Positions 9,001-30,000 of a stretch of 40,216 nucleotides of DNA are shown here, piece after piece. The stretch is from an uncultured bacterium. Lineage in GTDB: Bacteria > Fidelibacterota > Marinisomatia > SCGC-AAA003-L08 > GCA-002704045. Position 1 is the first letter of the stretch, and every line of letters starts with the position of its first letter. Made by a program: the position numbers and the translations under genes. The notes under the pieces are model-generated. The model had not been told where the DNA came from and searched no databases. It saw only the letters and a list, made by a program, of their open reading frames with translations. The stretch is from assembly GCA_964439775.1 (NCBI GenBank), contig CAYTPF010000001.1, forward strand, positions 761 to 40,976, in the 5' to 3' direction.

Positions 9001-12000
9001 CGATCAGCAGGTTGGTCGCACTCGCAACCGCCTCCGTATCGTCACCGTCCGTTCCGGTGTACAGCGTCATCTCCGCCGGCGTCGCACCCGGCGTATCGCC
9101 GGTCATGCTGACATCGAAGCGCTGACCGTAAATACCGTAACCCGAACCATCCTGACCGCTGGATTCCCAGGTGACCATGAAGCCGCCATCGGCAAGAGAG
9201 GCTACCGACGGGTCGACCTGCTGGCTCGAAATATAGGTGTTGGCCATGAACTCGTCGCCAACCGGCGTGCCCGTGATGTCGAACAACTGACCGCGAATAT
9301 CCGAGCTGGATCCACCGTTCTGGCCACTGTCGTCCTGCCAGGTGACAACAAAGCCAGCGTTCGTGCCCTCAAGAGCCGTCACCGACGGCAGGTACTGGGA
9401 ACTGCTGGTCCAGGTGTTGATCCGGAAATCCCCACCCAGGGCCTCCGGCGTTGTTAACGCATCACCATTATCGTCAACCGTGGTAAAGATCTGGCCGCGA
9501 ACGTCGTAGCTGGAACCCGTTGTGCTGTCGTTATCGTTCGTGTCGTGGTAGCTGCCATGGTCATCACGCCAGGTAACGATGAACTTACCATTGCCGAGAT
9601 CAGCCATCGCCGGCTCGTACTGCGCGCCGCTGTCCGCATCGGCATTGACCAGGAAGTCCTCGCCGACCTTCTCACCCGCCGCATCAAAGCGCTGACCAAA
9701 GACATCAATACCGCTGCCGCCATCATGGCTGCCGCCATTGTTATCACGCCAGGTGACGACAAAGCCGCCGTCCGACAGAGAGGTAATCGCCGGATCATAC
9801 TGACTGCCCGACGTATAAGTGTTCACCAGAATCTCGTCGGCGGACACAATCGGCGTATCGACCGGATTGCCGTCCGCATCCGTCACGCTCACAATCTTGG
9901 CGAAGATGTCGTGGCTGGAGCCGCCACGTGAACCCGCGTTGCCGTCGTCATCGCGCCAGGCCACCGCAAAATTACCATCCGCAAGTGCCGTGATCGAACC
10001 TTCGTACTGGCTGCCGGAGGTATAGGTATTGACGATAAACTCACTGCCCTGCGCCGATCCCGTTGCATCATAGCGCTGACCAAAGACGCCGTAGTCCCAG
10101 CCACCGGCGTCATAGAGACCGTCCCAGGTAATGACGAAGCCGCCGTCCTCGAGCGCCGTGATATCTGGCCGCTGCTGATAATAATAAGTCTTCGTATTGA
10201 CCTGGAAGCTCTCGCCCGAGGGCAATCCGGAAGGTCCGTACACCTGGGCGTAGATGCCCTGCTGACTACCATCCTCGCCATAGGAATCCCAGGTCACCAC
10301 GTAGCCGCCGTCGGCAAGGCCGGTAACCGCCGGGTTGAGCTGGTCATTCATGCCATAGGACGTATTGACCTGGAACTCTTCCAGGGTCTCGGTCGTATAA
10401 CCGGCGGTCTGCGTCGTCGAGCCTGTATCGGTCGTCGTCGTCGTCGTCGAACCGCTGCCCGATCCCGCACCTTGCGCCGCCAGAGCATCTACCGCGTCCG
10501 CTTGCGCCGAAACCGCAGCCGCATCAACCGCTTCACCCGCCTGCGCCGCGCCACTTTGTTGCGCGGCAACGCCGCTCGCCGAAAGCGCGGCATCGGGAGC
10601 CGATACTTGATAGTCGGTCACCGTGACCAGGCCGCTGAGCGTCGTCACAGCACTATCCGCCGTGTGTGTCAGGGTCGTGTCAGTACCATCGTCCCCAATC
10701 GCGTAGTCGCCGTCATCAAACCGCAGCGTCTCGATGCCATAGAGCGTATCGGCATCGCCGGCGCTATCCGTCACCGTCAGGACGCCGGCCTCGACCGTCA
10801 CCGTGTAGTCCGTGAAGTTCCCGCCGAAGATCGCGATATCGGCGTCCGCACCCCCAGCAAGGATGTCACGGCCTTCACCACCAATCAGGGTATCGTCGCC
10901 GTCACCGCCGACCACCGTGTCGTCGCCGCCGCCACCACGGACGAAGTCGTTACCATCACCGCCCTGGAGAATGTCATCGCTGTCGCCGCCGTAAAGGGCA
11001 TCGTTCCCGGCTTCACCGTCAACCCGCGCACCAAGCGCATCACCGGCGCTGAACACCTGGGTCGCATTTAGTGCGCCAGCACCCGTCGCATCCACCGACA
11101 GACTGAACTGCTGCGGCTCACCATTGGCATCAAAGCGGCGGGCGTAGATATCTGTGCTTGAACCGCCACGGTCGCCGCCGCTGCCATCATGATCGGCCCA
11201 GGAAATCAGGAAGCCGCCGTCGTCAAGCCTACTGATTGTCTGCTCGTTCTGCGTCCCCGAAAGATGCTCATCGTTGGCGACAATCTCATCACCAACCTTC
11301 TGAGGCGTGCCGCTGACCGGATTACCATTAGCATCCGTGGTCGAGAAGGCCTGGCCGTAGACGTCTCCATTCCAGTAATACCAGGCAACGGCAAAGCCTT
11401 CGTCTGTAGCCGTAACCTCGGGATATGCCATATGGATGTCCATCGAGGTATTGATCCGGAACTCGTCACCGTCCGGGGCCCCGGTTGCGTCGTAGCGCTG
11501 ACCGAAGACACCGTAATGGGAGCCGCCATCAACGCTCGAATGGGTCGAATGGCTGGTCCAGGTGACAACGAAACCGCCGTCATCAAGCGAGGCAACCGAC
11601 GGGTATTCCTGGGTTCCCGATTTGGAATTGATGACCGTACCGTTGCTATTCTGCGTTGCGCCGTCGCCGCTGGCGTTGACCAGAAACTCGTCAATGCCCA
11701 CAACCGGTGTGTCTACCGGGCCGTTACTGCCATCCGTGGTCGTGAATGTCTTGGCAAAAATATCGTGACTGGATCCCTCGCGACCATCCGCACTGCCGTC
11801 TGAATCTTCCCAGGTCACCACAAAGCCATCACCGTGCGCGGCTATCGAGGAGTGGTACTGGGTCCCGCCGGCGTAGCTGTTGACCAGGAACTCGGCACCC
11901 ACTTCCGTACCCGTCGCGTCATAGCGCTGACCGTACACATCCGTGCCACTTCCTGGGTCTGCATTATTGCTGCCTTCGTTATCACCCCAAAGGATGACAA

Positions 12001-15000
12001 ACCCGCCGTCCTGCAACGCCGTGATCTGAGGATCATTTTGCGTGCCGCTGACGGCCGTGTTGACCAGGAACTCATCGATCTGGGTGATCGGCGTATCAAC
12101 AGGCGTTGCGCCGTCGTGCGTCGTGAAGATCTTGGCGCGGATATCTGTGCTGCTGCCGTCCCCGTGACCGCTGTCGTCCTGCCACGTCACCACGAAGCCG
12201 TCACCATGCGGGGCTACCGATGCATAATACTGAGTGCTGCTTGTATAGCTGTTGACCATGAACTCATCGCCAACCGCCTGTCCGCCCGCATCGTAGCGCT
12301 GACCGAAGACACCGCTGCTATCTTGAGCACCACTCCCATGCCAAATAACAACGTAGCTACCATCGCTCAGCGTTGTGCTTGATGGATCGTTCTGACTGCT
12401 CGATACGTAGCTGTTGACCCGGAACGCACCGGCGCCGGCCTCATTGGCCCGCACAATAATGTCATCAGAGCCGTCACCGATCATCGCCGTGACCGCTGCC
12501 GACACATCGGCATCGCCGTTGATGGCATCAATCAGGCCGGCGCGCACCTCGGCGACATCGTCGCCGGCCGCAGCCGTATAAGTCACCGTCGTGCCGTTCA
12601 CGGTCGCCGTGAAGTCTTCACCCTCGGCAACCGTGCCGCTGATCGTCATCCGGTCCGTCTGGTGCGCGAAGTTCTCACCGCTAACAACCGCCAGGTCGTC
12701 GCCACCACCGAGGTTCACTTCTTCGACATTGGAGACCGTGATCGCATCTGCCTGATCGCCCAAGTCGACCCGGTCGATACCGTCACCAAGATCGATGCTA
12801 ACGCCGCTCTGGGCCGCATCGAAGACCAGTATCTCGTCCGCCGAACCGCCAATCAGCTTCGCTTCCGTCGCCTTACTGCCGTCGGCGTTGAAGTGCTGGC
12901 CGTAAATGCCGTAGGAACTGGAGTAATCCTGATAACGCGATTCCCAGGTGACGACGAAGCTGCCATCGTCGAGAGCCGTCACCGACGGATCTTGCTGATC
13001 ATGGCTCGTATAACTATTAACCCGGAACTCAGAGCCCTGCTCGGCACCGGTGGCATTGAACACCTGACCATAAATACCGTAGCCCGAACCATCCTGGTTG
13101 CTGGATTGCCAGGTGGCAACAAAGCCACCCTCACTCAACGCCGTCACCGACGGATAGCTCTGGGTGCTGCTCGTATAACTGTTGACCCGGAACTCGGAGC
13201 CCTGCTCGGTACCATCGGCATTGAACATCTGCGCATAGACGTCCGCACGTCCACCGTCGTACCAGGTGACGACAAACGCATCATCGGCAAGCGCCGTCAC
13301 CGACGGATAGTACTGCTCACTGGACGTGGTATCGGTGTTGACCAGGAACTCACCATCACTGTGCGGCGTGCCGTCAGCTGCGAAGCGCTGACCGTAGATG
13401 CCGTACTGGCTGCCATCCTGGCCGTTCGACATCCAGGTGACGATGTAACCGCCGTCACTGAAACTGGTCACCGACGGTTGTTGTTGATGGTTATTGGTAT
13501 GGGTGTTGACCTGGAACTGACCGCCCGCAACCGCTGTCGGCGTATCCACACCCGTTGTCGTAAACTGCTGGCCGAAGACAGCGTAGTTGCTGCCATCGGT
13601 GAACCCGGCGTCTGTCCGGGTCGTATTGCCCGCCTCATCGCCCCAGGTCACAACAAAGTTACCGCTGCCAAGATCCGTCACCGATGGATGATGTTGGTCA
13701 CCCGACGTGTAACTGTTGACAGCAAACTCATCGCCCAACATCTGTCCATTGCTATCAAAACGCTGGCCAACGATGCCGTAGCCAGCATCATCGTAATCGG
13801 CAATGTCGCCATCTCGTGTGCTGTTCGATTCCCAGGTAACGACGAAGCTACCGTCGCTCAGCCCCGTAACCGATGGCTCGCTTTGGTGATTATGCGTATC
13901 GGTATTGACCCGGAACTCCTCACCAAGGGCTTCGCCGCCGTTGGTATAGAGCTGGCCGTAGGTGTTGTAATAGCTCCCGTCGTCGTCCTGGTTATAGGAT
14001 TGCCAGACCACCACATAACCGCCGCCAGCCAGCTTATCGACCGATGCATTGACCTGATGGTTGTGTGTAAAGGTGTTAACCCGGAACTCGTCTTCCGCAT
14101 CACCGGAGAAAGTCAGCTCGCCGTCATTGAACTGGATCGTCTCGACGTCCTTACCCAGCGTGTCGGTGCCATCATCACCGTCGGCAAGATCACCGTCAGT
14201 AATCGTCCGGTTGGTCATGTCGAGGCGGTAGTCCGACATCTCTCCGGAATAGAGAGCAACGTCATCTCCGTCGCCACCGGCAATCATGTCATCACCGGCA
14301 CCACCGATCATCACATCATCACCGGAACCGCCCTGGATCAGGTCGTCACCAATGCCACCATCAATGCGGTCGTCGCCACTACCGCCCTGAAGCTTGTCCT
14401 CACCAGCGTCACCTTTGAGAACGTCATCGCCACCCGAACCGGCAATCCGGTCATCACCATCACCACCGGACAGGTTGTCCGCAGCACCGCCGCCTATCAG
14501 TGCATCGTCACCATCGCCGCCGTAGACGGCGCCGAAGGTATCGGTGCCGCTGAGCTCATGGCTGACCGTCGCCGCATTGTCATCCGTGCTCGCCAGCGAT
14601 GTCGTGTTCTGGGTGCTGCCGCTGGCCGCAAACGTCGCTCCCGCCGTCGTCGCCGTCAGGATGATCTGGCCGTCTTCGGAACCCGCGCTCGCCGTCACCG
14701 TTGTGCTGATCGTAGCGTCGGCATCAAGACTGGTTAGTAAGCTGTCGCGAATGTCGGCAATGCTCTCACCCGTCGAGACCGTGTGGGAGACACTGTCGCC
14801 ACCAATGCTGAGTGTGTAGCTGTCACCCGCCTCGATGGTACCAGCAACCGTCACCTGGCTGACCTGGTTCACATTGGCACTGGTGTCACTGACCGTCGTT
14901 ACCGTCGCGCTGTCCGCCGGTGCAACCGACGTCTGCAGGGCTGTCCCCGCATCAACGGTGCTGAGAACGATCGTCGAAGCACCCTCGCCTTCGGCCCTGA

Positions 15001-18000
15001 CCATGGAACTCACATCCGGGTCGGCACCGATGGAACCCATCAGGCCGGCGCGGACGGCTGCAGCCGTATCACCCGCCTGAGCCGTGTAACTCACCGTATG
15101 TGTATCGGTGCCATCCGAGACGCTGAGGCTGTATTCCTCGCCCTGCGTAATGCTGGTCAGGTCAATCCGGTCAATCTGGTGCAGGCTGGCCACCGCATCG
15201 TGCAAGACGTCAACCGTCACCGTCGCATCATCGAGACCGCCCGCATTGTTAAACGCTTCAGCCGAAGCGAAGAAGGGGTTGGTCGAACCATCGACGCCAA
15301 AGCGCTGACCATAAATACCGTAACCCGAGCCGTCCTGGCCGCTGGATTCCCAAGTGACCATGAAGCCGCCGTCTTTGAGCGCCGCCACCGACGGATCATA
15401 CTGATCGCTCGAGGTGTAGGTGTTGACCTGGAACTCGTCGCCGAAGGTGTTGCCCTGCGCGTCATAACGCTGACCAAAGATACCGTAGCTTGAGCCATCC
15501 TGACCGCTGGACTGCCACGTGACGACAAAGCCGCCGTCCAGCAAGGCCGTGACGTCTGGCTTTGTCTGCTCACTCGAGGTGTAGGTGTTGGCCTGGAACT
15601 CATTACCGTCCGTGCTGCCATCGGCGTTGAAGCGCTGGCCGTAGATGCCGTAGCCCGAGCCATCCTGACCGCTGGATTCCCAGGTAATGACGAAGCCGCC
15701 GTCGGCAAGGTCGGCAATCGACGGGTTGTACTGATCGTTGTTCGTATAGGTATTGACCTGGAACTCGGTGCCATCCGCATTGCCGTCGGCATCGAAGCGC
15801 TGGCCGTAAATACCGTAGTTGCTGTTGCCATTACCATTGCTGTCGAGGTCATCCTGGTAACGGCTCTCCCATGTGACCACAAAGCCGCCATCCTGGAGCG
15901 AGGCTATCGATGGGTCTTCCTGATTATTATACGTCTCCGTATTAATCTGGAAGGCATTACCCGCCTGTTCGCCATCCACATCAAAGCGCTGGCCGTAGAC
16001 ACTGTAACCGTCATCATCCCCGTAAGATGAACTTCCCACCGTCCAGGTTGTGACAAAGCCGCCGTCCTTAAGACCCGTAATCGAAGGCTGGGACGGTGAA
16101 TAGTTCGCATCCGCAACGACAAACTCGCTGCCCGAAGGCGTGCCGTCCGCATCATAGCGCTGGCCGCGAAGGTCGTTATTGTTGCCGCTGTACCAAGCTG
16201 CGACAAAACCGCCGTCCTCAAGCGCCGTCACCGATACACTGTTCTGAGAGGAGTTGGTCAGGGTATTGACCCGGAACTCATCACCGATAGCATTGCCGCT
16301 GGCGTCATAACGCTGGCCATAGACACCTTCACCAGAACCGTCTCGGCCACTCTCATCGGTCCACATCACCACCACGCTGCCGTCATTCAGCGTCGTCGCC
16401 GAAGGATCTTTCTGCGTGCTCGACGTGTACGTATTAATCTGAAACTCTTTCTGGACACCCGCTTCGCCGGCCCGGATCACGATCTCGTCGGCCGCGTCAC
16501 CTGCCATGACAACGACCGCATCGGAAGCCCCGGCATTCAGCGCATCGATCAGGCCGGTCCGAACCTCGGCAATGCTATCGCCATCCTCGACCCGGTAGCT
16601 CACCTTCGTCGCATTGACCGTGACCGTGTAAACATCACCCGTCTCAATCGTGCCGGACAGCTTAACCACGTCCGTCTGGTGCGCCAGGTTGTCGCCGGTA
16701 ACGACCGCCATATCATTGCCGTCACCGAGGTCGACCGTCTCCGTATTGGCCACCGCAATGCTGTCGTCGCCGGCGCCAAGCGTCAGCGTATCGATGCCGT
16801 CACCGAGATCGATGGCAAGACCGTCCTGAGCCGCATCAAAGATCAGCGTCTCGTCACCCGAACCGCCAATCAGCTTGGCATCACTGGCCTTCGTGCCGTC
16901 GGCATTGAAGTGCTGCGAGAAGATGCCCCAGTCGCTGGAGCCATTGTTATCTTGATACTCAGATTCCCAAGCGACAACAAAGCTGCCGTCGGCAAGCGCT
17001 GTCACCACCGGATCTTGCTGCGACTGATACGTCTCCGTGCTCACCTGGAACTCATCGCCAACCGGGACACCGCTGGTGTCATAGCGCTGGGCGAAGATCC
17101 CATATTCGTGACCGTCTTGATTGTAGCCTGCCCAGGTGACAACAAAACCGTCGCTGCCCAGGCTGGTCACCGTCGCGTCATACTGCGTACTACTTGTGTA
17201 CGTATTGGCCTGGAACAAATCACCGTTCGGGACCGGCGTATCATCATCCGTTCCCGAAACCATCGTGAACTTCTGACCAAACACCGCCCAGTCGCTGTTA
17301 TCGAACCCGGAACCCAGCTCATTCGAGCGGGAGTTGGTCGCCTCATCACCCCAGGTGACAACGAACTCGCCGTTGTCGAGGCCGGCCACCGAGGGCTGAT
17401 GCTGATCGCGAACTGTCCGGTCCGCATTGACCATAAACTCGTCGCCAACCGTGTTGCCCGAAGCATCGAACTGCTGGCCGTAAATGTTATAATAACCGCC
17501 GTCGCCATCCTGATTATAGGATTCCCAGACCTTCACAAAGCCGCCATCCGAGAGCGATGCCAAAGCCTCACCTGAGTTGGCACCCGGGTTATACTGATTG
17601 CTTGAGGTATAGGTGTTGACCTGGAACAGATCCCCGTCCGTCGACGGCGTATCGCCACCCACCGTCGTAAACTTCTGACCAAATACCGCCCAATCGCTGT
17701 TGTCGAAACCGGAGCCCAGCTCGCTTGAGCGCGAGCTTGTGCTCTCGTCACTCCAGGTGATGACAAACTCACCATTATCGAGACCGGTTACCGACGGGTC
17801 ATGCTGATCACGGATCGTCCGATCCACATTGGCCATGAACTCGTCGCCAACTGAACCGCCATTCGCATCAAAACGCTGACCATAGATATTATAGTAATGG
17901 CTGTCGCCATCCTGGTAGTCCGACTCCCAGGTAACGACAAAACCGCCGTCCGACAGCGAGGCGATCGAAGGATCACTCTGGGTCTGATAGGTCGTGGTGT

Positions 18001-21000
18001 TAACCCGGAACTCTTCGCCGAGCGGCGCGCCGCTTGGCGTGAAGACCTGACCGCGGATGTCCGCGCCACTGCCACCATCATGACCACTGTCGTCCTGCCA
18101 GGTCACCACATAGTTGCCATCGGCAAGACCCGTGATCGACGGATCATGCTGGGAGGAAGGCTCCCAGGTATTGACCTGAACCTCTTCCGCCTCGCTCGAC
18201 AGCGTCAGTTCGCCGTCACTGAAGCGAACCGTCTCGATGCCATCCAGCGTATCCGTGCCGTCGTCACCATCCGTTGTATTGATATCAGTGACCGTGCCGG
18301 CATCCGTATCCAGGCGGTAATCCGACATCTTCCCGGAGAACTCGGCAACGTCACTACCGTCGCCACCCTTCAACGTGTCGTCCCCGGCGCCGCCGATCAG
18401 GACGTCATCACCACGGCCACCCTTCAGCGTGTCGTTACCGCCAGCACCGTCGAGGATATTGGCCCCGCCGCTGCCTTCAATCACGTTCGCCGCGTCGTTA
18501 CCCGTACCAGAGACCGCATCCGGACCGCTGAGATCCAGCTCTTCGATATTGTCACTCAGGGTGTAACTCTCACCCGTGCTGATCACACGGTCTGCACCCT
18601 CACCCGTCAGTTCCGTCACCACATCGTCGGCACTGTTGACCGTATAGGTGTCGTCGCCGTCGCCACCAATGAGCGTATCCGCACCAGCGCCGCTGGTTAT
18701 CCGATCATCACCGCTGCCCGCCGTAACGACAGCACCGGTCTCACCCTCGATCGTCAGCGTGTTGTCGCCTTCGCCAAGGTTGACCGTCTCCACATTCTCG
18801 ACACGAAGCTGATCATCGCCGGCACCAAGCGTCAGGCTATCCGTACCCTCACCAAGATCAACCGCACGCTCATTCATCGTCTGACTGAAGGTCACCGCTT
18901 CATCGGCAACGCCACCGGTAAAGCGGATCGTCGACAGCGGCAGGCCGTTGGCATCATAACGCTGACTGTAGATGCCTGAACCACTGCTGTCCTGTCCGTC
19001 CTCCGACGTCCAGGTGACAACAAAACCACCGTTATCGAGTGCCGCAACCGACGGATCATGCTGAGAAGAGTTGGTATAGCTGTTGGCCATGAACTCGTCG
19101 CCAACCGGCGTACCCGTACCATCAAACATCTGACCACGGATATCCGCACCGGAACCGCCATCATGGCCACTGTCGTCACGCCAGGTGACGACAAAACCGC
19201 CGTTATCAAGGGTTGTCACCGACGGCTGATACTGGGAACCCGACGTGTAATCGTTGATACGGAAGTCGCCGCCCAGGACCTGTGGCGTCAGGATCAGATC
19301 GCCATCATCATCGGTCGCAGTCGTCGTAAAGATCTGACCGCGGACATCGTAACCGGATCCTGTCGCGCTGTCGTTGTCGTTCGTATCGTGTGAGCTGCCA
19401 CTGTCATCACGCCAGATCACCACGAACGTGCCATTGCCAAGATCGGCCATCGCCGGCTCATACTGCGAGCCGCTGTCCGCATCGGCATTGATCAGGAAGT
19501 CGTCACCAACCTTCTGACCCGCCGCATCGAAGCGCTGACCAAAGACATCAATACCACTGCCACCGTCATGACTGCTGCCCTTGTCATCACGCCAGGTGAC
19601 GACAAAGCCACCGTCTGAGAGCGATGTAATCGCCGGGTCGTACTGGCTGCCCGACGTATAGGTGTTCACCAGGACTTCATCTGCGTCAACAATCGGCGTA
19701 TCGACCGGATTACTGCTCGCATCCGTCGTCGTGAAGGTCTTAACGAAGATGTCGTTGCTGCTGCCGCCTTGGCCATCATTACTACCGTCACTATCGTACC
19801 AAGCCACAGCAAAACCGTCACCGTGGGCAACGATCGCCGGATCATACTGCTCGCCCGAGACATTCGTATTGACGAGAAGTTCCTCGCCAATCATCTCGCC
19901 ATCCACATCGAAGCGCTGAGCCCGAATGTCGTAGCTAGAACCGGCATCATGGCCGCTGTTATCACGCCAAGTGATGACAAACCCGCCGTCGTTCAGCGTT
20001 GTCACCGAGGGCTCATACTGATGGCTCGAGGTATAGGTGTTGACCCGGAACTCATCACCGATCAGCGCACCCGTCTCATTGAACAGCTGAGCTCGGATGT
20101 CGTAATTAGAACCGCCGCTATGGCCGCTGCTGTCCGCCCAAGTCACCACATACTTACCGCCGGCAAGGCCTGTCACTGAAGGCGTATACTGCGTACCTGA
20201 GACGTACGTATTAACCTGGATCTCGCCGTCGTTATCGTCAGAGACTTCCAGTCGCTGACCGTCGGCAAAGGCAAGCGTCTCGACACTCGTTAGGCTGTCC
20301 GTGCCGTCATCGCCGTTCGTTGTATCGACATCAGTGACCGTAATCGTCGTGCCATCTGCACTGGTCGTGACCCGGTAATCAGAGATGTCGCCGGCGAACG
20401 TCGCCGTATCCGAGCCCGCGCCGCCATCAATCGTATCGTCACCGGCGCCGCCCGTTATAACGTCACTGCCCGAGCCCGCATTAATCTGATCAACACCTTG
20501 GCCACCGTCCAGTGTGTCCATGCCAGACCCAGCGTTCAGGACATCGTTACCAGAGCCGCCAACGAGCGTATCCGAGCCAGAGCCGCCAATTAGGATGTCC
20601 TCGCCGGAACCGCCGTCCAATAAGCTGCCCGCGTTGTTCGCAAACAGGCGGTCGTCGCCACCCTCGCCAAAGACGTTGCTCGCCTCATCGCCCGCGACCG
20701 TAACAACATCAGCACCGCCACCCGCGTACACATACTCCGTGCCAGAAACAAAGAAGGTGCTCTCCGCATTACCCGTCAGCGTAATAGTATCGATGCCTTC
20801 GCCGAGATTGATGAGAGAGTAGTCGTCGACACCTGTGAATGTGAATGAGGAGTTGAGATCATCACCGAGGGTTGTGGCGACACCTTTGGTTCCGTCGGCG
20901 GAGAAGCGCTGGGCCCGGATGTCGTAGCTGGAGCCGCCGCTATGGCCGCTGCTGTCCTGCCAGGTGACCACGAAACCACCATCGACGAGGGCGGTAACCG

Positions 21001-24000
21001 ACGGCTCACTCTGGGTGCTGCTATTATATGTGTTAACCCGGAACTCATCGTTGAACGGGGTTCCATCAGCGTTATAGATCTGGCCACGGATATCTGAGGA
21101 TCCGTCGTTGTACCAGGTCACGACGAAACCACCATCGGCAAGCCCGGTTACGGAAGGCGTATATTGATTATTGGAGATATAATCGCTGACAATCGGCATC
21201 TCATCGCCGACCGGGCTTCCGGCGGCATCGTAGCGCTGACCCATGATGGTATATGAGTGGTGTTGGTCGCCGTAGTAGGACGCGTAAGTGACGATAAAGC
21301 CGCCGTCACTCAAGTCTGCAACCGACGGCGCATACTGAGTGTGATAGGTGCCGTCATTGACCCGGAAATCAGACCCGGCTTCTACCGGTGTCGTCAGCGC
21401 ATCACCATTGGCATCCTTGGTGGTGAAGATCTGCGCCCGGATATCATCGCTTGAGCCTGTCGTTGCGTCGTCGCCGCTCTTATCATGAGAGCTGCCCTGA
21501 GAATCCCGCCAGGTGACCACGAACTGGCCGTTACCAAGTCCGGCGACCGAAGGCTCATACTGAGAGCCGGTGTCCGCATCGGCATTGATCAGGAACTCAT
21601 CGCCCACCTTGACAGAGTTGGCATCAAAGCGCTGGCCGAAGACATCGACACCGGAGCCCTCACGGGAATCTGTGGCACCATTGTTATCGCGCCAGGTCAC
21701 GACAAAGCCGCCGTCATCGAGACTGGCGATTGACGGATCGTACTGATCGTCGTCAATCGTCGTATGGATCTGGAACTCGCCACCCTGTGGCTCGCCGGAG
21801 GCACTGTAGTGCTGGCCGTAGACACCGTAGCTGCTGCCCGCATCTTGGTACCGCGAGCCCCAGGTGATGACATAACTGCCGTCTTCGAGGCTCGTGACTT
21901 CCGGGTTCCTCTGGGTGTGACCCGTGTGGGTGTTGACCCGGTACTCGCCGCCAATGGGATCGCCGAGAATATTATAGTTCTGGGCATAGACGTCGTCCCG
22001 GTTCTCATCGTACCAGGTGGTGACAAAGTTGCCGTCACCATAGGCGCTCACCGAAGGATTGTGCTGGTCCCCACTGATGTTGGCATTGACCATGAACTCG
22101 CCGGTCTCGGTGACCGAAACCGTCAGTTCAGCGCCGTCGTCAAAACGGAGCATCTCGATGTCATACAGGGTATCGGTACCCTCGTTACCGTCCGCGACAT
22201 TAAGATCGGTCACCGTCATCGTGGCGAGATTGATGGCGTAATCAGAAGCGTCCCCAAGGAACGTGGCAACGTCATACCCTTCGCCACCGCGGAGGATGTC
22301 GTCACCAAGGCCACCGCTCAGAATATTGTCGTTGGCATTGCCGAAGATCTCGTTGTCGGTCGCGCTACCGATACCAGTTATTGACAGCTCGCCGCTGAGA
22401 TACAGCTCTTCGACGTTGTCCCAAAGGGTCGTCGTCTCGAGCGCCGAGTAGACGGTATCGATGCCACCGTTGGCACGCTCGATAACCGTATCATTGAGGT
22501 CGGCTTCGCTGATGCTGTACGTATCGTTACCGTCGCCACCCTCCAGCATATCCGATCCGGCACCGCCGCTCAGGAAGTCATGCCCGGCGCCGCCCTCAAG
22601 CGTGTCGTCACCGATGTTGCCGGTTAGGACATCGTTACCGGAACCGCCGACCAGCTGATCATCGCCAGTTGCGCCATACAGATGATCGTTGCCGGTACCA
22701 CCATCCACATAGACGCCGGCATCACCCTTGACTTGAACAAAGTCATTGCCGCCACCCAGATCGACCGTCTCAACATTCGTCACCGTCAGCGTATCCCGGG
22801 CATCCCCGAAGGTCAGGGTATCGATGCCGGCACCAAGATCGACATTGAGGCCGAGCTGACCATCGGCCAGGAAGATGTCTTCATTGGCAGCTGTGCCGGT
22901 CAGTTCGGCCTGGCTCGCCGGCGTACCGTCGCTGTCGAACCGTCTGGAGAACACGCCGTAGCTGTGATCATAGCTGCCGGAACTGTTCGGGCTGTCCCTG
23001 TAATCGGACATCCACGAAACCGCAAATCCGCCATCGGCAAGAGCCGCAATCGAGGGCTGGTTTGAATTGTATGAATTATCGGGATCAACTTCGATCTCGC
23101 CGCCGACCTTGGTGCCGTCCGCATTGAAGACCTGGGCTCTGATATCGTCATTATTGCCGTTGTACCAGACGGCGACAAAGTTGCCGTTGGTCAGCGTGGC
23201 AACGTAAGCGTCACTCTGAGTACTGTTGGTCGTCGAGTTGATCTGGAACTGATCCCCCGACATGGATACGGCGTCTTCGCCTTCAACGTTGCTGGTGGTA
23301 AACACCTGGCCGAAGACACCCCAACCGCTGGTGTCCGTACCCGGACGGTTGGCATGGGTCGTCTCATCTCCCCAGGTAACGACAAACTGACCGTTGTCGA
23401 GCCCGGTGACATCCACTTGGGACTGATTGCCGCTCGTCCAGGTATTGACGGGGAACTCATCACCACGAACCTCACCGTCCGAACCGTAGCGTTGGCCACG
23501 AATACCATAGCCAGAAGTATCGTCGCTATCTTGCGAGGTATTGTCTTGCCAGGTGATGACAAACCCGCCATCCGACAGAGAGGCCACCGCCGGATGGGTC
23601 TGCTCTCCTGACGTATAGGTATTGACCCGGAACTCACTACCGGAAGGTGTGCCATTAGCATCGTAACGTTGGCCATAAATACCGTAGTCGCTGCTACCCG
23701 TATCCTGGTAGCGCGAGTGCCAGGTGACCACATAGCCGCCGTCAGCCAACGCCGTGACTTCCGGTCCTGTCTGATCGTCGTAAGTCTGGGTATTGATCAG
23801 AACTTCCGGACCCTGAGCAACACCGCTGGCATTATAGAGCTGGCCGCGCACATCCCAGCTCTCTCCACCACCAATCTGATTGTTAGAGCCACTGCTGTCC
23901 TGCCAAGTGATGAAGAAGCCGCCGTTCTCAAGACCGGTAACTTCCGCCCGCTCCTGTTCGTTCCCTGTCCAGGTATTGACCTGGAACTCTTCGCCAAGAG

Positions 24001-27000
24001 GTTGGCCGCTGGCGCCATAGCGCTGGGCAAAGACACCGTCACCGGAGCCGTCCTGATTATAGGATTCCCAAGTAACGACATAACCGCCGTCGGTCAGTCC
24101 GGCCATGGACGGCTGCTGTTGGTGGCCTTCAATGTAGGTATTGACCTGGAACTCTTCGCTGTCTGTCGACGTAAACGTGACTTCGGTTCCGTCACCGAAG
24201 CGGACGCTCTCAATATCTCTGAGCGTATCCGTACCGCCGTCACCGTCTGCGGTGTTGGCGTCGATGATCTGGCTGTTGGTTACGTCGACCCTGTACGCGT
24301 CCGCATCACCCTCGAAGACGGCGACATCGTCACCCTCGCCACCGTCCAGCACATCGTCACCAAGGCCTCCGACAAGCGTATCGTCGCCAGCCTGACCCTG
24401 CAGATGATCGGCACCGTCGCCACCCGACAAGACATCACCACCAACGCCGCCAATCAGAAGGTCATCGCCGTCATCGCCGTAGACCGATGAGCCAATCTTT
24501 GCCGTGCCGGAGACGACAATCTCCGCATTAAACGTATCCTGCGTAACACTGGCACTGCCCAGGGTTACGGTCTGAACCGCGTTATCACTGAGCGTTCCAC
24601 CATCAGTTGCGGTTGCAGTCAGAGCAAACGACGTACCCTCACCCGCGCTCAGAATAACTTCGTTAACACCGCCGCCGGTCGTCGCCGTTACGTCGAGCCC
24701 GGCTCCGTTCACGGCCGACACCAACTGTTCTCTGACATCGGTCATGGTGTCGCCGGCGACCGCCGTGTACGTCACATCCTGATCATCAAGGGTCAGCGTG
24801 TAGCTATCGCCCGCTTCAATGTCGCCGAACAGACGAACCGCTTCGAGGGTGGAGCCGGTGATATCCGCTGACTGGGCCGAAGAAGCAAACGTGACGGGGG
24901 CACCGCTGGCATCGAAACGGTGGCCGTAAATGCCGTAGCCATTGCCATCCTGTCCGGCCGATTCCCAACTGACGAGGAAGCCGCCATCCACAAGAGCCGT
25001 CACCGACGGATCCTGCTGGCTTCCCTGGGTCTCTGCATTGACCCGGAACTCACCACCGACCTCGACACCTTGGCTGTTGTAAAGCTGGCCATAGACGCCG
25101 TAGCCGCCGCCGTCCTGCATGCTCGACCAGGTTACGACAAAGCCCGCATCCGTCCCGGTCAGGCCGGTGACGTCGTGCATCTTCTGGTCGCCGGCAATCT
25201 CTGTATTGGCCAGGAACTCACCGCCGACCTTGTTGCCGTTCTGATCAAATACCTGACCCTGAATGTCGTAACCGCTGCCGTCATTGCTGGTGGTGTTGTC
25301 TTCCCAGGTAACGACGAAGCCGCCGCCGTCCAGGCGGGCAACCTCAGGCTGATAACTTGAGCTGTGCTGACTGACTTCGAACTCGCCGCCTTGTGGGCTG
25401 CCGTCCCGGTCAAAGATCTGGGCGAAGGTCTTGTTGTGGCTGTCGGAATACCACGTCACCACAAACCCGCCACCATCCAGATCCGTAACGGATTGCTGAT
25501 ACTGGTTGCTGGAAGTCGTGGTATTGACCCGGAACTCATAGCTCTCGGCTTCGCCTTCCGCATCATACATCTTGCCGTAGACGCCCCAGGTGTTGCTCGA
25601 GTCCTGGTAGTAGGAATCCCAGGTGACAACGAAGCCGCCGTTATCAAGCGCCGCAATCGAGGGCTCCTGCTGATCCCGATTGGTGTACGTGTTGACCTGG
25701 AACTCGTCACCCTTCGCCGTTCCGTCGGCACCGAACCGCTGACCGAAGATACCGTTGTAGCTATCGTTCTGGCCCTGCTCTTGATAGGTGCCCTGCCAGG
25801 TGACGACAAAGTCACCGCTCTTCAGTGCCGTGACACTCGGTTTAGTTTGCTGTGCGCTCGAGTTCGAATTGTACGTATGGACCTGGAACTCACCGCCCAG
25901 CATCGCGCCGTCGGCACTATGGAGTTGCCCGTAGATCCCGTATCCGCTGCCGTCCTGGCTCTCGGATTCCCAAGTCGTCACAAAATTGCCGTCTTCCAGA
26001 CGCGTCGTCGACGGGTTCTGCTGATCGCCATCAGTATAGGTGTTGATCTGGAACTCGTTGGCGCCCGATACCATGGACGTCAGCACCAGTTCGCTGGCGC
26101 TATCGCCACCGCCGGCCGTGACCATGGATGCCGCCTGGGCATCGGTATTGATTGCGCCCACCAGGCCGGCCCGGACCTCGACAAGCGTGTCACCCGGCTG
26201 TGTCTCATAGCTGACGTCATGGCCGTTAACGGTGACCGTGTAGATATCCCGGACCTCACCCGAAAGCGTGATCTTGCTGACCTGGCTCGCCACCACGGTT
26301 CCGTCGATCGTCACCATGTCATCGCCGTCACCTGCATTGACGATCTCGGTATCGCGGACGATCGCCGAATCGTCACCATCACCGAGAGTGATGGTGTCGT
26401 TGCCGGCGCCAAGATCGATCAGCAGGTTGGTCGCACTCGCAACCGCCTCCGTATCGTCACCGTCCGTTCCGGTGTACAGCGTCATCTCCGCCGGCGTCGC
26501 ACCCGGCGTATCGCCGGTCATGCTGACATCGAAGCGCTGACCGTAAATACCGTAACCCGAACCATCCTGACCGCTGGATTCCCAGGTGACCATGAAGCCG
26601 CCATCGGCAAGAGAGGCTACCGACGGGTCGACCTGCTGGCTCGAAATATAGGTGTTGGCCATGAACTCGTCGCCAACCGGCGTGCCCGTGATGTCGAACA
26701 ACTGACCGCGAATATCCGAGCTGGATCCACCGTTCTGGCCACTGTCGTCCTGCCAGGTGACAACAAAGCCAGCGTTCGTGCCCTCAAGAGCCGTCACCGA
26801 CGGCAGGTACTGGGAACTGCTGGTCCAGGTGTTGATCCGGAAATCCCCACCCAGGGCCTCCGGCGTTGTTAACGCATCACCATTATCGTCAACCGTGGTA
26901 AAGATCTGGCCGCGAACGTCGTAGCTGGAACCCGTTGTGCTGTCGTTATCGTTCGTGTCGTGGTAGCTGCCATGGTCATCACGCCAGGTAACGATGAACT

Positions 27001-30000
27001 TACCATTGCCGAGATCAGCCATCGCCGGCTCGTACTGCGCGCCGCTGTCCGCATCGGCATTGACCAGGAAGTCCTCGCCGACCTTCTCACCCGCCGCATC
27101 AAAGCGCTGACCAAAGACATCAATACCGCTGCCGCCATCATGGCTGCCGCCATTGTTATCACGCCAGGTGACGACAAAGCCGCCGTCCGACAGAGAGGTA
27201 ATCGCCGGATCATACTGACTGCCCGACGTATAAGTGTTCACCAGAATCTCGTCGGCGGACACAATCGGCGTATCGACCGGATTGCCGTCCGCATCCGTCA
27301 CGCTCACAATCTTGGCGAAGATGTCGTGGCTGGAGCCGCCACGTGAACCCGCGTTGCCGTCGTCATCGCGCCAGGCCACCGCAAAATTACCATCCGCAAG
27401 TGCCGTGATCGAACCTTCGTACTGGCTGCCGGAGGTATAGGTATTGACGATAAACTCACTGCCCTGCGCCGATCCCGTTGCATCATAGCGCTGACCAAAG
27501 ACGCCGTAGTCCCAGCCACCGGCGTCATAGAGACCGTCCCAGGTAATGACGAAGCCGCCGTCCTCGAGCGCCGTGATATCTGGCCGCTGCTGATAATAAT
27601 AAGTCTTCGTATTGACCTGGAAGCTCTCGCCCGAGGGCAATCCGGAAGGTCCGTACACCTGGGCGTAGATGCCCTGCTGACTACCATCCTCGCCATAGGA
27701 ATCCCAGGTCACCACGTAGCCGCCGTCGGCAAGGCCGGTAACCGCCGGGTTGAGCTGGTCATTCATGCCATAGGACGTATTGACCTGGAACTCTTCCAGG
27801 GTCTCGGTCGTATAACCGGCGGTCTGCGTCGTCGAGCCTGTATCGGTCGTCGTCGTCGTCGTCGAACCGCTGCCCGATCCCGCACCTTGCGCCGCCAGAG
27901 CATCTACCGCGTCCGCTTGCGCCGAAACCGCAGCCGCATCAACCGCTTCACCCGCCTGCGCCGCGCCACTTTGTTGCGCGGCAACGCCGCTCGCCGAAAG
28001 CGCGGCATCGGGAGCCGATACTTGATAGTCGGTCACCGTGACCAGGCCGCTGAGCGTCGTCACAGCACTATCCGCCGTGTGTGTCAGGGTCGTGTCAGTA
28101 CCATCGTCCCCAATCGCGTAGTCGCCGTCATCAAACCGCAGCGTCTCGATGCCATAGAGCGTATCGGCATCGCCGGCGCTATCCGTCACCGTCAGGACGC
28201 CGGCCTCGACCGTCACCGTGTAGTCCGTGAAGTTCCCGCCGAAGATCGCGATATCGGCGTCCGCACCCCCAGCAAGGATGTCACGGCCTTCACCACCAAT
28301 CAGGGTATCGTCGCCGTCACCGCCGACCACCGTGTCGTCGCCGCCGCCACCACGGACGAAGTCGTTACCATCACCGCCCTGGAGAATGTCATCGCTGTCG
28401 CCGCCGTAAAGGGCATCGTTCCCGGCTTCACCGTCAACCCGCGCACCAAGCGCATCACCGGCGCTGAACACCTGGGTCGCATTTAGTGCGCCAGCACCCG
28501 TCGCATCCACCGACAGACTGAACTGCTGCGGCTCACCATTGGCATCAAAGCGGCGGGCGTAGATATCTGTGCTTGAACCGCCACGGTCGCCGCCGCTGCC
28601 ATCATGATCGGCCCAGGAAATCAGGAAGCCGCCGTCGTCAAGCCTACTGATTGTCTGCTCGTTCTGCGTCCCCGAAAGATGCTCATCGTTGGCGACAATC
28701 TCATCACCAACCTTCTGAGGCGTGCCGCTGACCGGATTACCATTAGCATCCGTGGTCGAGAAGGCCTGGCCGTAGACGTCTCCATTCCAGTAATACCAGG
28801 CAACGGCAAAGCCTTCGTCTGTAGCCGTAACCTCGGGATATGCCATATGGATGTCCATCGAGGTATTGATCCGGAACTCGTCACCGTCCGGGGCCCCGGT
28901 TGCGTCGTAGCGCTGACCGAAGACACCGTAATGGGAGCCGCCATCAACGCTCGAATGGGTCGAATGGCTGGTCCAGGTGACAACGAAACCGCCGTCATCA
29001 AGCGAGGCAACCGACGGGTATTCCTGGGTTCCCGATTTGGAATTGATGACCGTACCGTTGCTATTCTGCGTTGCGCCGTCGCCGCTGGCGTTGACCAGAA
29101 ACTCGTCAATGCCCACAACCGGTGTGTCTACCGGGCCGTTACTGCCATCCGTGGTCGTGAATGTCTTGGCAAAAATATCGTGACTGGATCCCTCGCGACC
29201 ATCCGCACTGCCGTCTGAATCTTCCCAGGTCACCACAAAGCCATCACCGTGCGCGGCTATCGAGGAGTGGTACTGGGTCCCGCCGGCGTAGCTGTTGACC
29301 AGGAACTCGGCACCCACTTCCGTACCCGTCGCGTCATAGCGCTGACCGTACACATCCGTGCCACTTCCTGGGTCTGCATTATTGCTGCCTTCGTTATCAC
29401 CCCAAAGGATGACAAACCCGCCGTCCTGCAACGCCGTGATCTGAGGATCATTTTGCGTGCCGCTGACGGCCGTGTTGACCAGGAACTCATCGATCTGGGT
29501 GATCGGCGTATCAACAGGCGTTGCGCCGTCGTGCGTCGTGAAGATCTTGGCGCGGATATCTGTGCTGCTGCCGTCCCCGTGACCGCTGTCGTCCTGCCAC
29601 GTCACCACGAAGCCGTCACCATGCGGGGCTACCGATGCATAATACTGAGTGCTGCTTGTATAGCTGTTGACCATGAACTCATCGCCAACCGCCTGTCCGC
29701 CCGCATCGTAGCGCTGACCGAAGACACCGCTGCTATCTTGAGCACCACTCCCATGCCAAATAACAACGTAGCTACCATCGCTCAGCGTTGTGCTTGATGG
29801 ATCGTTCTGACTGCTCGATACGTAGCTGTTGACCCGGAACGCACCGGCGCCGGCCTCATTGGCCCGCACAATAATGTCATCAGAGCCGTCACCGATCATC
29901 GCCGTGACCGCTGCCGACACATCGGCATCGCCGTTGATGGCATCAATCAGGCCGGCGCGCACCTCGGCGACATCGTCGCCGGCCGCAGCCGTATAAGTCA

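What the first reader, a model, noticed from the sequence alone, without database searches (positions are those of the whole stretch)
20700..20830. The copy-to-copy joint reads like ancestral contiguous sequence, while the outer ends of the block are truncated motifs
Across the joint the protein reads INLGEGIDTITL-TGNAE-STFFVSGTEYVYAGGGADVVTVAGD. This aligns, with one indel, to the intact linker motif found five other times in each unit. Examples are VDLGAGIDTLTF-GDARD-TLTVTNVETVDLGGGNDFVQVKGD (about 5330-5460), IDLGDGIDTLTLGAGDDSIAVANTETVDLGDGNDMAVVTGD (about 16700-16830) and IDLGDGIDRVDLGDQADAITVSNVEEVNLGGGDDLAVVSGE (about 12690-12810). The 13 'unique' nucleotides are therefore probably not random filler but the native middle of this motif. 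At the outer ends the motif is cut. The block starts abruptly at STFFVSG (lacking the IDLG.G.DT.TL half) and ends at IDTITL (lacking the second half). The inserted block thus looks like a linear excerpt of a head-to-tail array, or of a circular or rolling-circle intermediate opened within about 15 nt of the same phase at both ends. This implies that the unit existed as a tandem or circular form before it landed in PA14.
Basis: inference. Interest (0 to 1): 0.6.

Follow-up and report, generated by a model that had tools for sequence, protein, structure and literature searches.

The report
Giant repeat joint is native linker
The seam between two identical 17.4-kb repeats in a giant calcium-binding surface-protein gene is an old, ordinary junction between protein modules, and the whole repeat block sits inside a split PA14 lectin domain in distant relatives too, so it is an inherited architecture and not a recent mobile insertion.

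Summary
Window 3360-20761 and 20775-38176 are identical (17,402 nt) and separated by 13 nt. One minus-strand ORF runs through everything. The joint peptide matches a profile of the five internal linkers (29.5-42 bits; 1000 shuffles reach at most 10.5). The block's outer ends match only half of that profile.

The score comes from the unit's own ends. Random replacements of the four residues the 13 nt encode do as well in 10% of trials. What shows the 13 nt are native is conservation: the joint is gap-free in two independent assemblies at 93% nt identity and in homologues at 58-61% and 45% aa identity.

Both outer junctions are also old. PA14-N|unit occurs at the same residue in a 55% homologue. 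Unit|PA14-C occurs at the same codon in a 99% long-read contig and in an 80% orthologue with saturated synonymous sites.

Best reading: a conserved split-PA14 host carries a modular guest array. The 100% identity between copies reflects concerted evolution and/or an assembler passing twice through a graph loop.

I found no mobile-element hallmarks.

The parts
20687..20812 (-). Joint linker: end cap of the last module of the N-proximal unit (INLGEGIDTITLT), then GNAE, then the start cap of the first module of the next unit (STFFVSGTEYVYAGGGADVVTVAGD)
   Evidence: Linker HMM 29.5-42 bits, full-length match. HSPs span it. Conserved in L102, L103, P0137 and P0130.
20762..20774 (-). The 13 nt (j) between the two exact copies. 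They encode G-N-A-E and complete the Thr codon.
   Evidence: Same length in relatives at 93% nt identity. The content is not significant on its own (p about 0.10).
20775..38176 (-). Unit copy nearer the protein N-terminus: 17,402 nt, six modules a-f, GC3 0.68
3360..20761 (-). Unit copy nearer the protein C-terminus, 100% identical to the other copy
   Evidence: L021 (long-read contig) is 99.4% identical over its last 12.2 kb.
38177..38326 (-). PA14 N-terminal half (ISGLSAEYF...PSASGSIN) ending at the X|U junction
   Evidence: The joined flanks give PF07691 at 74 bits, profile 3-146. The same junction occurs in P0141/L104.
3044..3358 (-). PA14 C-terminal half (RAYSDIAVRWTG...AENFF) starting at the U|Y junction
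   Evidence: PF07691 65 bits, profile 42-146. The junction is conserved in L021 and L001. pN 0.19 against pS 0.86.
38102..38176 (-). Outer start of the block: module start cap only (second half of the linker profile)
   Evidence: HMM positions 19-41, 9.3 bits
3359..3397 (-). Outer end of the block: module end cap only (first half of the linker profile). The profile match runs on to position 22 into RAYSD-IAV.
   Evidence: HMM positions 1-22, 7.6 bits
22721..22843 (-). Internal linker 5, the closest analogue of the joint because an RTX run follows it. Equivalent linkers lie at 36155-36277, 34106-34228, 30089-30211 and 26297-26419, and in the other copy at 18740-18862, 16691-16813, 12674-12796, 8882-9004 and 5306-5428.
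38327..40216 (-). Upstream host region X: RTX runs and about 45-aa modules, GC3 0.50. The ORF runs off the contig end.
2..3043 (-). Downstream host region Y after PA14: RTX runs and a non-repetitive domain, GC3 0.51. The ORF continues beyond the window.

Best explanation
The window is a fragment of a giant RTX-type, probably secreted adhesin-like protein. In it, one PA14 domain acts as a split host domain. The chain leaves PA14 in the loop before the '(F/I)AVRWTG' strand, runs through a guest array of at least 11,605 residues, and returns to finish PA14. The guest is built of modules (beta-propeller blocks plus RTX beta-roll). Each module begins with a start cap (xTFFVxGTExVxxGGGxDxVxVxGD type) and ends with an end cap (xDLGxGxDTxTL). 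The copy-to-copy joint is therefore the ordinary, ancient junction between module f and module a. The 'truncated' outer ends are the natural first and last caps of the array, joined to the PA14 loop. These two caps are neighbouring rungs of one beta-roll in every intact linker. If they pair in the same way at the block's ends, the guest's N- and C-termini would meet, as a domain insertion requires. This last step is inferred. The six-module super-unit is present at least twice. Its 100% identity, against 1-55% divergence between lineages, comes from recent unequal homologous recombination or gene conversion (concerted evolution), from a short-read assembler walking one graph loop twice, or from both. 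Shown here: the anatomy, the collinearity, and the conservation of all three junction types. Inferred: cap pairing, the homogenisation mechanism, and the true copy number.
For: The exact repeat and open frame are. The joined flanks form one contiguous PA14 hit, and an intact paralogue 57% identical spans the split site. The joint is collinear with the five internal boundaries. The joint is conserved in L102 and L103 (93% nt, gap-free), in P0137/P0132 (58-61% aa) and in P0130 (45% aa, collinear e-f-joint-a). X|U is conserved at the same residue in P0141/L104 (55% aa over 333 aa). U|Y is conserved at the same codon in L021 (99.4% nt, 541-kb pilon-polished contig) and in L001 (80% aa over 2,255 aa). 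For PA14-C, pS is 0.86 and pN 0.19. Within the unit dN/dS is 0.13-0.16. The start cap also follows a non-PA14, non-end-cap context in P0150 (HMM 14-38 only). The GC3 step at the host/guest boundaries recurs in three lineages: ours 0.50/0.68/0.51, L001 0.70/0.57, L104 0.48/0.68. It therefore looks like a maintained property of the array and not a fading foreign signature. An AlphaFold2 model of the joint region shows short strands running without a break from the end cap through the start cap into a regular RTX roll, with pLDDT 59-82 at the linker and about 90 in the roll. Published RTX adhesins use split domains, including a beta-roll and a vWFA domain as hosts, and the termini of the guest lie adjacent (PMC12077191). 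Identical tandem repeats are common in these genes, and short-read assemblies misjudge them (bioRxiv 10.1101/2025.09.30.679566).
Against: No single relative was seen to carry all three junctions on one molecule. X|U was found only in a 55% homologue, which may be a paralogue: it comes from MAG GCA_036230885.1, and its accession number lies close to those of two near-identical unit fragments. Copy number and the 100% identity cannot be checked without reads. I could not walk upstream on the long-read contig. Cap pairing is untested because chimeric constructs are not accepted by the fold tool. The model of the linker has only moderate confidence, and Foldseek matches to RTX structures are weak (E at least 0.04). 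That the block's two ends lie at the same phase is equally what an insertion of a pre-formed array would give.
Confidence: 0.6

Rival explanations
1. A pre-existing head-to-tail array, or a circular or rolling-circle multimer of the 17,415-nt period, was opened within about 13 nt of one phase and inserted into a PA14 loop in a distant ancestor. All junctions have been inherited since.
For: The block starts and ends 13 nt apart in phase within a 17,415-nt period. For two independent breakpoints this has a chance of roughly 0.1-0.2%. A tandem duplication without filler is excluded: j matches neither the last 13 nt of X (4/13) nor the first 13 nt of Y (2/13) (my count on the sequences). The joint is native and old. 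The block's GC3 differs from that of the host.
Against: There is no recombinase or any other Pfam family on the plus-strand ORFs of the unit. There are no terminal repeats or target-site duplication. Nothing matches in plasmids, phages or viral contigs. The same-phase ends are also explained by selection, since a guest must have adjacent termini, and by the caps being natural module ends. The GC3 step persists across lineages with saturated dS, which argues against a foreign relic. The event, if it happened, is too old to test.
Confidence: 0.2
2. Assembly product. The genome has only one unit between the PA14 halves, or a different number of non-identical units. The f-j-a edge comes from another copy, locus or strain. 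A path-extending short-read assembler joined them as X-U-j-U-Y, the shortest walk that uses every edge of a loop.
For: The contig sits in a 258-contig, 1.63-Mb MAG and carries a 100-N gap flanked by the same RTX sequence, which suggests short-read scaffolding. It is a mis-binned contig: 57.7% GC against 30.9% for the MAG. Identity of exactly 100% over 17.4 kb is what a twice-walked edge gives. Contigs of relatives break at or near the unit ends: P0122 stops 19 aa before the unit end, and P0132 starts exactly at j. The literature warns about such genes.
Against: The j edge carries this strain's own sequence, with 5 differences in 93 nt from the 93% lineage. So X|U, U-j-U and U|Y all exist in this population, which requires at least two near-identical unit copies somewhere. 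All three junctions are in frame. f-j-a adjacency is ancestral in the family. The N run may be an operator mask and not a scaffold gap.
Confidence: 0.15
3. A recent duplication of the whole guest by illegitimate end joining. The 13 nt are random filler that happen to keep the frame.
For: The four residues encoded by j are not significantly motif-like (10% of random 4-mers score as well). The copies are 100% identical.
Against: The same 13-nt spacer is present, gap-free, in lineages with dS 0.25-0.27. Its Gly-Asn is kept in a 58-61% homologue. A recent random event cannot be shared in this way. Its breakpoints would also have to coincide with both host/guest boundaries.
Confidence: 0.03

Closest known systems
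Split-domain plus budding-guest architecture of RTX adhesins (AhLap, FrhA, MpIBP region III; PMC12077191, PMC10865825)
   Same: A host domain's sequence is interrupted, the chain builds another folded unit, then returns to finish the host. RTX beta-rolls and vWFA domains can also be hosts, and guest termini lie adjacent. Here the two flanks join into one PA14 hit, and the arrangement is conserved in homologues.
   Different: In the described cases the host is usually an Ig-like extender and the guest is one ligand-binding domain of about 17-30 kDa. PA14-type lectins are guests there, not hosts. Here PA14 is the host and the guest has at least 11,605 residues (12 modules). No structure shows that this PA14 still folds.
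Identical tandem repeats in bacterial surface proteins kept alike by unequal recombination (RTX adhesin extenders, MpIBP region II, Bap/Rib/alpha-C type proteins)
   Same: Head-to-tail, in-frame copies are identical at the DNA level within a genome while orthologues diverge. Short-read assemblies do not resolve them.
   Different: Known units are about 250-650 bp, one domain each. This unit is 17,415 bp (5,805 codons, six composite modules). Only two copies are seen, and their number and identity are not verified.
RTX beta-roll (PF00353) with capping structures
   Same: PF00353 hits run throughout. The modelled linker continues into a regular 9-residue roll. The best structural neighbours are RTX blocks of adenylate cyclase toxin, lipases, alkaline proteases and AhLap 9CSE.
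   Different: The matches are weak (E at least 0.04, TM 0.2-0.43). The 41-aa linker is not a canonical nonapeptide run and has no family of its own in Pfam.
Campbell-type integration of a circular multimer, or rolling-circle concatemer insertion
   Same: An insert made of more than one period, whose two ends lie at the same phase.
   Different: There is no recombinase, attachment-site repeat, target duplication or extrachromosomal relative. The junctions are ancient and coding.

Membership tests
RTX (repeats-in-toxin) adhesin / type I secretion substrate | Runs of Ca2+-binding nonapeptide repeats (PF00353) | tested here: met
   E 2.7e-69 and 3.1e-81 in the flanks; 1e-26 to 1e-30 in each half of the unit
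RTX (repeats-in-toxin) adhesin / type I secretion substrate | [quoted passage not shown] | not testable with these tools
   The ORF runs off both ends of the contig. L021 shows the gene fragmented by frameshifts, and I did not analyse its end.
RTX (repeats-in-toxin) adhesin / type I secretion substrate | Tandem Ig-like extender domains and an N-terminal retention module | tested here: not met
   Pfam finds only PF00353 and PA14/GLEYA in the window. The repeats are propeller-like 60-aa blades, not BIg extenders. The N-terminus is absent from the window.
Split host domain with inserted guest | Two separated pieces that together make one complete domain | tested here: met
   Joined flanks: PA14 74 bits, profile 3-146. 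The C-side flank alone: 65 bits, profile 42-146. The N-side flank alone: no hit. The paralogue is contiguous across the site.
Split host domain with inserted guest | Arrangement conserved and both halves under purifying selection | tested here: met
   X|U in a 55% homologue. U|Y in an 80% orthologue with pN 0.19 against pS 0.86 in PA14-C. Selection on the N half was not measured.
Split host domain with inserted guest | Guest N- and C-termini adjacent in space; host still folds | not testable with these tools
   Inferred from the caps being consecutive strands in the model of the intact linker. Chimeric constructs cannot be submitted.
Tandem repeat under concerted evolution | Copies more alike within a genome than between lineages | tested here: inconclusive
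   100% identity within the contig against 99.4%, 93% and about 73% nt to L021, L102/L103 and L001. The 100% may be an assembly product.
Tandem repeat under concerted evolution | Copy-number variation among strains | not testable with these tools
The long-read contig could not be read upstream.
Mobile or circular DNA element | Own recombinase, transposase or replication gene | tested here: not met
   The five largest plus-strand ORFs have no Pfam family. The minus strand is one structural ORF.
Mobile or circular DNA element | Terminal repeats or target-site duplication; copies in plasmids, phages or viral contigs | tested here: not met
   The junction sequences share nothing. No megablast hit in plasmids or phages. 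No viral-contig relative.
Mobile or circular DNA element | Extrachromosomal circular or concatemeric molecules | not testable with these tools
A circle junction would in any case be identical to the tandem joint.

The most novel reading that the evidence does not exclude
A conserved family of giant proteins in marine Pseudomonadota (relatives are labelled Acidiferrobacteraceae) in which a PA14 lectin fold hosts a guest of more than 11,000 residues inside one loop. The guest consists of 17.4-kb (5,805-codon) super-repeats kept identical by ongoing recombination, and that recombination also holds the array's GC3 about 0.18 above the host gene through GC-biased gene conversion. This would be by far the largest domain insertion and the largest in-frame identical repeat unit described in a bacterial protein.
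Probability: 0.3. Interest if true: 0.7.

Novelty: new variant of a known kind. Interest (0 to 1): 0.45.

Why it matters
For the narrow finding, the result removes a tempting story. The seam of the repeat is not evidence of a circular or rolling-circle element that recently landed in a gene. It is an inherited junction between protein modules.

The wider picture is more interesting. A PA14 domain split by a guest of about 11,600 residues is conserved from 99% down to about 45-55% identity, and the host half remains under purifying selection. That extends the split-domain design rule of RTX adhesins to a new host fold and to a guest size two orders of magnitude larger.

The case also shows how giant identical repeats in metagenome contigs should be read: copy number and identity are assembler-dependent. 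If the identity is real, the conserved GC3 step at the host/guest boundaries offers a natural test case for recombination-driven base composition inside one gene.

Tried and rejected
I could not search the MAGs of L001 or the VX411/VYC03 relatives.
- Walking upstream on the 541-kb long-read contig failed. The 3,829-aa neighbouring product was not returned by a dedicated search. A 40-kb query is too long for the cluster look-up. No cluster member lies on that contig.
- The JGI metagenome scan with the X|U junction found only distant RTX proteins at 27-54% identity.
- The search of 1.84 billion representatives with the X|U region was swamped by generic RTX giants at 34-49% identity and gave nothing.
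- No other contig of the MAG carries related sequence or an empty PA14 site.
- Plasmid, phage and viral-contig searches returned nothing. The scan's own notes hold no look-alike window.
- A tandem duplication without filler, of U plus 13 nt of either flank, is rejected. j matches the end of X at 4/13 positions and the start of Y at 2/13 (my count on the sequences).
- 'Recent random filler' is rejected by conservation.
- Foreign origin of the block inferred from GC3 is weakened, because the step recurs in lineages with saturated dS.
- Foldseek on the linker model gave only weak RTX hits.
Full report
WHAT IS THERE. The window is bases 761-40976 of a 40,976-bp contig (C1) in a 258-contig, 1.63-Mb metagenome-assembled genome. 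C1 has 57.7% GC against 30.9% for the bin, so it is a mis-binned contig. One minus-strand reading frame is open over the whole window (13,405 codons, no stop) and runs off both ends. A self-comparison gives a single exact repeat: 3360-20761 equals 20775-38176 (17,402 nt, 100%). Thirteen bases (CTCCGCATTACCC, 20762-20774) lie between the copies, and the period is 17,415 nt = 5,805 codons. No other contig of the bin carries related sequence.

THE FLANKS. Pfam finds RTX nonapeptide repeats throughout, and a PA14 hit covering only profile positions 42-146 right after the block. Joining the last residues before the block to the first residues after it gives one contiguous PA14 hit (74 bits, profile 3-146). 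An intact PA14 paralogue further downstream in the same ORF (C1:5-349, outside the window) aligns at 57% identity straight across the split site. The block therefore lies in the PA14 loop before the (F/I)AVRWTG strand.

THE OBSERVATION. Each unit contains five copies of a 41-aa linker that separate six modules of about 630-1,340 aa. The modules are 35-70% identical to one another. The joint reads INLGEGIDTITL-T-GNAE-STFFVSGTEYVYAGGGADVVTVAGD.
- A 550-aa query centred on the joint aligns to all five internal boundaries as single HSPs that span the joint (E 5e-100 to 4e-54). MAFFT places one extra residue.
- A profile of the five internal linkers scores the joint at 42.1 bits as a peptide, against 0.2 +/- 4.0 (maximum 10.5) for 1000 shuffles. 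In the whole protein it scores 29.5 bits and is the only full-length hit apart from the ten internal linkers.
- In leave-one-out tests the joint scores 37-44 bits and the internal linkers 48-68.
- The outer ends are half hits: profile 19-41 at the start of the block and 1-22 at its end.

WHAT CARRIES THE SIGNAL. Replacing the four j-encoded residues with random residues leaves 38.9 +/- 2.5 bits, and 10% of random 4-mers do as well as GNAE. A 3-residue spacer would fit slightly better than the actual 4. So the resemblance comes from the unit's own two ends. The motif test alone cannot tell native sequence from filler.

INDEPENDENT ASSEMBLIES SETTLE IT.
- Joint, close relatives. Two NCBI MAG contigs (L102 from GCA_030741115.1 and L103 from GCA_036230485.1) are 93.0-93.5% identical at the nucleotide level. 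They cross the joint without a gap. Their spacer is also 13 nt, CGGTACTGCGGAG (GTAE), and dS to the window is 0.25-0.27.
- Joint, distant relatives. TARA proteins P0137/P0132 (58-61% aa) read ...DLGEGTDTITFT-GNSN-STFFVDGTEFVYAGGG and are collinear from module f through the joint into module a and its linker. P0130 (45% aa) is collinear over e-f-joint-a.
- U|Y, close relative. A 541,584-bp pilon-polished ENA contig (L021) is 99.4% identical over the last 12.2 kb of the unit and has the junction at the same base.
- U|Y, distant relative. An Acidiferrobacteraceae MAG contig (L001) is 80% identical over 2,255 aa and has the junction at the same codon. Between the window and L001, synonymous sites of the PA14 C-half are saturated (pS 0.86) while pN is 0.19. 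In the unit, dS is 0.67-1.24 and dN/dS 0.13-0.16.
- X|U. P0141/L104 (GCA_036230885.1; 55% identity over 333 aa with 2 gaps) reads ...FQGDWDGGLPSASGDVN|NTFFVSNTEVVRAGGGDD. The PA14 N-half is followed by the start cap at exactly the same residue.
All three junction types are therefore real, independent of this assembly, and old.

REINTERPRETING THE 'TRUNCATED' ENDS. In P0150 (48% aa) the same start sequence (IFFVNGTEEVKAGGGDDVVMIRD) follows a region carrying Big_9/cadherin-type Pfam hits. The linker profile matches only positions 14-38 there, so no first half is present. The second half of the 'linker' is thus the normal N-terminal cap of a module, and the first half is the normal C-terminal cap. 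An array of such modules necessarily starts with one half and ends with the other, whatever its history, and every internal junction looks like an intact motif.

An AlphaFold2 model of 240 aa around the joint (8-row alignment; mean pLDDT 68; 59-82 over the linker; about 90 in the roll) shows short strands running continuously from the end cap through the start cap into a regular RTX roll. Foldseek neighbours are all RTX rolls, but the matches are weak.

Published RTX adhesins project ligand-binding units out of split domains. Beta-rolls and a vWFA domain can serve as hosts, and the termini of the guest lie next to each other (PMC12077191). My inference is that the first start cap and the last end cap pair as neighbouring rungs, which would bring the guest's two termini together at the PA14 loop. 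This would explain why the two ends lie at the same phase without invoking a circle. I could not test it, because chimeric constructs are not accepted by the fold tool.

THE 100% IDENTITY. Both the f-j-a adjacency and the outer junctions are ancient, yet the two units do not differ at a single base. There are two non-exclusive explanations.
- Concerted evolution by unequal recombination or gene conversion, as in the identical extender repeats of RTX adhesins.
- An assembly effect. X enters U, and U exits to j (back to U) or to Y. This is a simple loop, and the shortest walk using all its edges is X-U-j-U-Y, in which the two copies are identical by construction. The bin's fragmentation and a 100-N gap flanked by the same RTX sequence suggest short-read scaffolding, although the N run could be a mask.
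Because the j edge carries this strain's own sequence (5 differences in 93 nt from the 93% lineage), at least two near-identical unit copies exist in this population. Their number and exact identity are unverified.

COMPOSITION. GC3 is 0.50 in X, 0.68 in the unit and 0.51 in Y, and it switches at the block boundaries. The same step is seen in L001 (0.70/0.57) and L104 (0.48/0.68). Neighbouring DNA on the long-read contig is 51-55% GC. A step that survives saturated synonymous divergence looks maintained, possibly by GC-biased gene conversion in a recombining array, and not like a fading foreign signature. This is an inference.

MOBILE-ELEMENT TESTS. The five largest plus-strand ORFs in the unit have no Pfam family. 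The four junction sequences share no repeat or duplication. The unit has no megablast match in plasmids or phages and no relative in viral contigs. A tandem duplication without filler is excluded, because j matches neither the end of X (4/13) nor the start of Y (2/13).

WHAT COULD NOT BE DONE. The look-up of sequencing runs and the genome search were closed, and the ENA record is not held. I could not read upstream on the long-read contig. The JGI scan and the representative search gave only distant RTX proteins.

VERDICT. The claim that the joint is native sequence is supported, by conservation and not by the content of the 13 nt. The claim of a tandem or circular excerpt that 'landed' in PA14 is not supported as a recent event, is not needed to explain the half motifs, and remains an untestable possibility for the distant origin. 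The thing itself is a new variant of the split-domain architecture of RTX adhesins with an exceptionally large repeat unit. The scan's own notes on the PA14 split and the perfect duplication (e1-3809956, e1-3809955) agree with what I measured.

Noticed in passing
whole window (contig C1 of the bin): C1 has 57.7% GC in a 30.9% GC, 1.63-Mb bin. Only 14 of 258 contigs exceed 45% GC. Its relatives are labelled Acidiferrobacteraceae or Pseudomonadota. The contig is a binning contaminant, so the bin's taxonomy should not be applied to this gene.
   Followed up: partly
window 3360-38176 versus 1-3359 and 38177-40216; L001; L104: Third-position GC steps from 0.50 to 0.68 and back to 0.51 exactly at the block boundaries. 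The same step occurs in an 80% orthologue and a 55% homologue. This suggests a maintained, recombination-linked bias and not a foreign relic.
   Followed up: partly
C1:5-349, just outside the window (left of the 100-N run at C1:661-760): A second, uninterrupted PA14 domain lies about 1,250 residues downstream in the same ORF. It is 57% identical to the joined halves and serves as a natural 'empty-site' comparison.
   Followed up: partly
window 3344-3358 (RAYSD) and following IAVRW: The linker profile match at the block's C-terminal end runs on to position 22, so T-RAYSD-IAV aligns with the spacer and first strand of an intact linker (GAGDD-SIAV). The first five codons of Y may be the diverged counterpart of j, or the similarity may be chance.
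   Followed up: partly
L021:12237-22670 (ENA ERZ28548074, 541-kb contig): In the long-read assembly the gene is broken into at least 10 called ORFs by frameshifts, for example right after HGYHDDGA in PA14-C. These are either residual long-read indel errors or a decaying gene. A second giant cadherin/Laminin_G gene (2,511 aa and more) follows downstream.
   Followed up: no
L104:1-480 (GCA_036230885.1): In the 55% homologue the ORF starts only about 70 residues before the PA14 N-half, preceded by AT-rich sequence with stops in all frames. That protein would therefore begin almost directly with the split PA14.
   Followed up: no
P0132 (TARA_123_MIX scaffold15487 gene 2) and P0122: Contigs or genes of relatives break at the unit boundary: P0132 starts exactly at GNSN|STFFV, and P0122 stops 19 residues before the unit end. 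This is what a branch point in their assembly graphs would give, and it hints that those lineages also have both f-j-a and f|Y continuations.
   Followed up: no
window 1-20 and C1:640-660: The 100-N run is flanked on both sides by the same RTX sequence (CACCGCCATC...). This is typical of a repeat-induced scaffold gap, and an unknown number of RTX repeats may be missing there.
   Followed up: no
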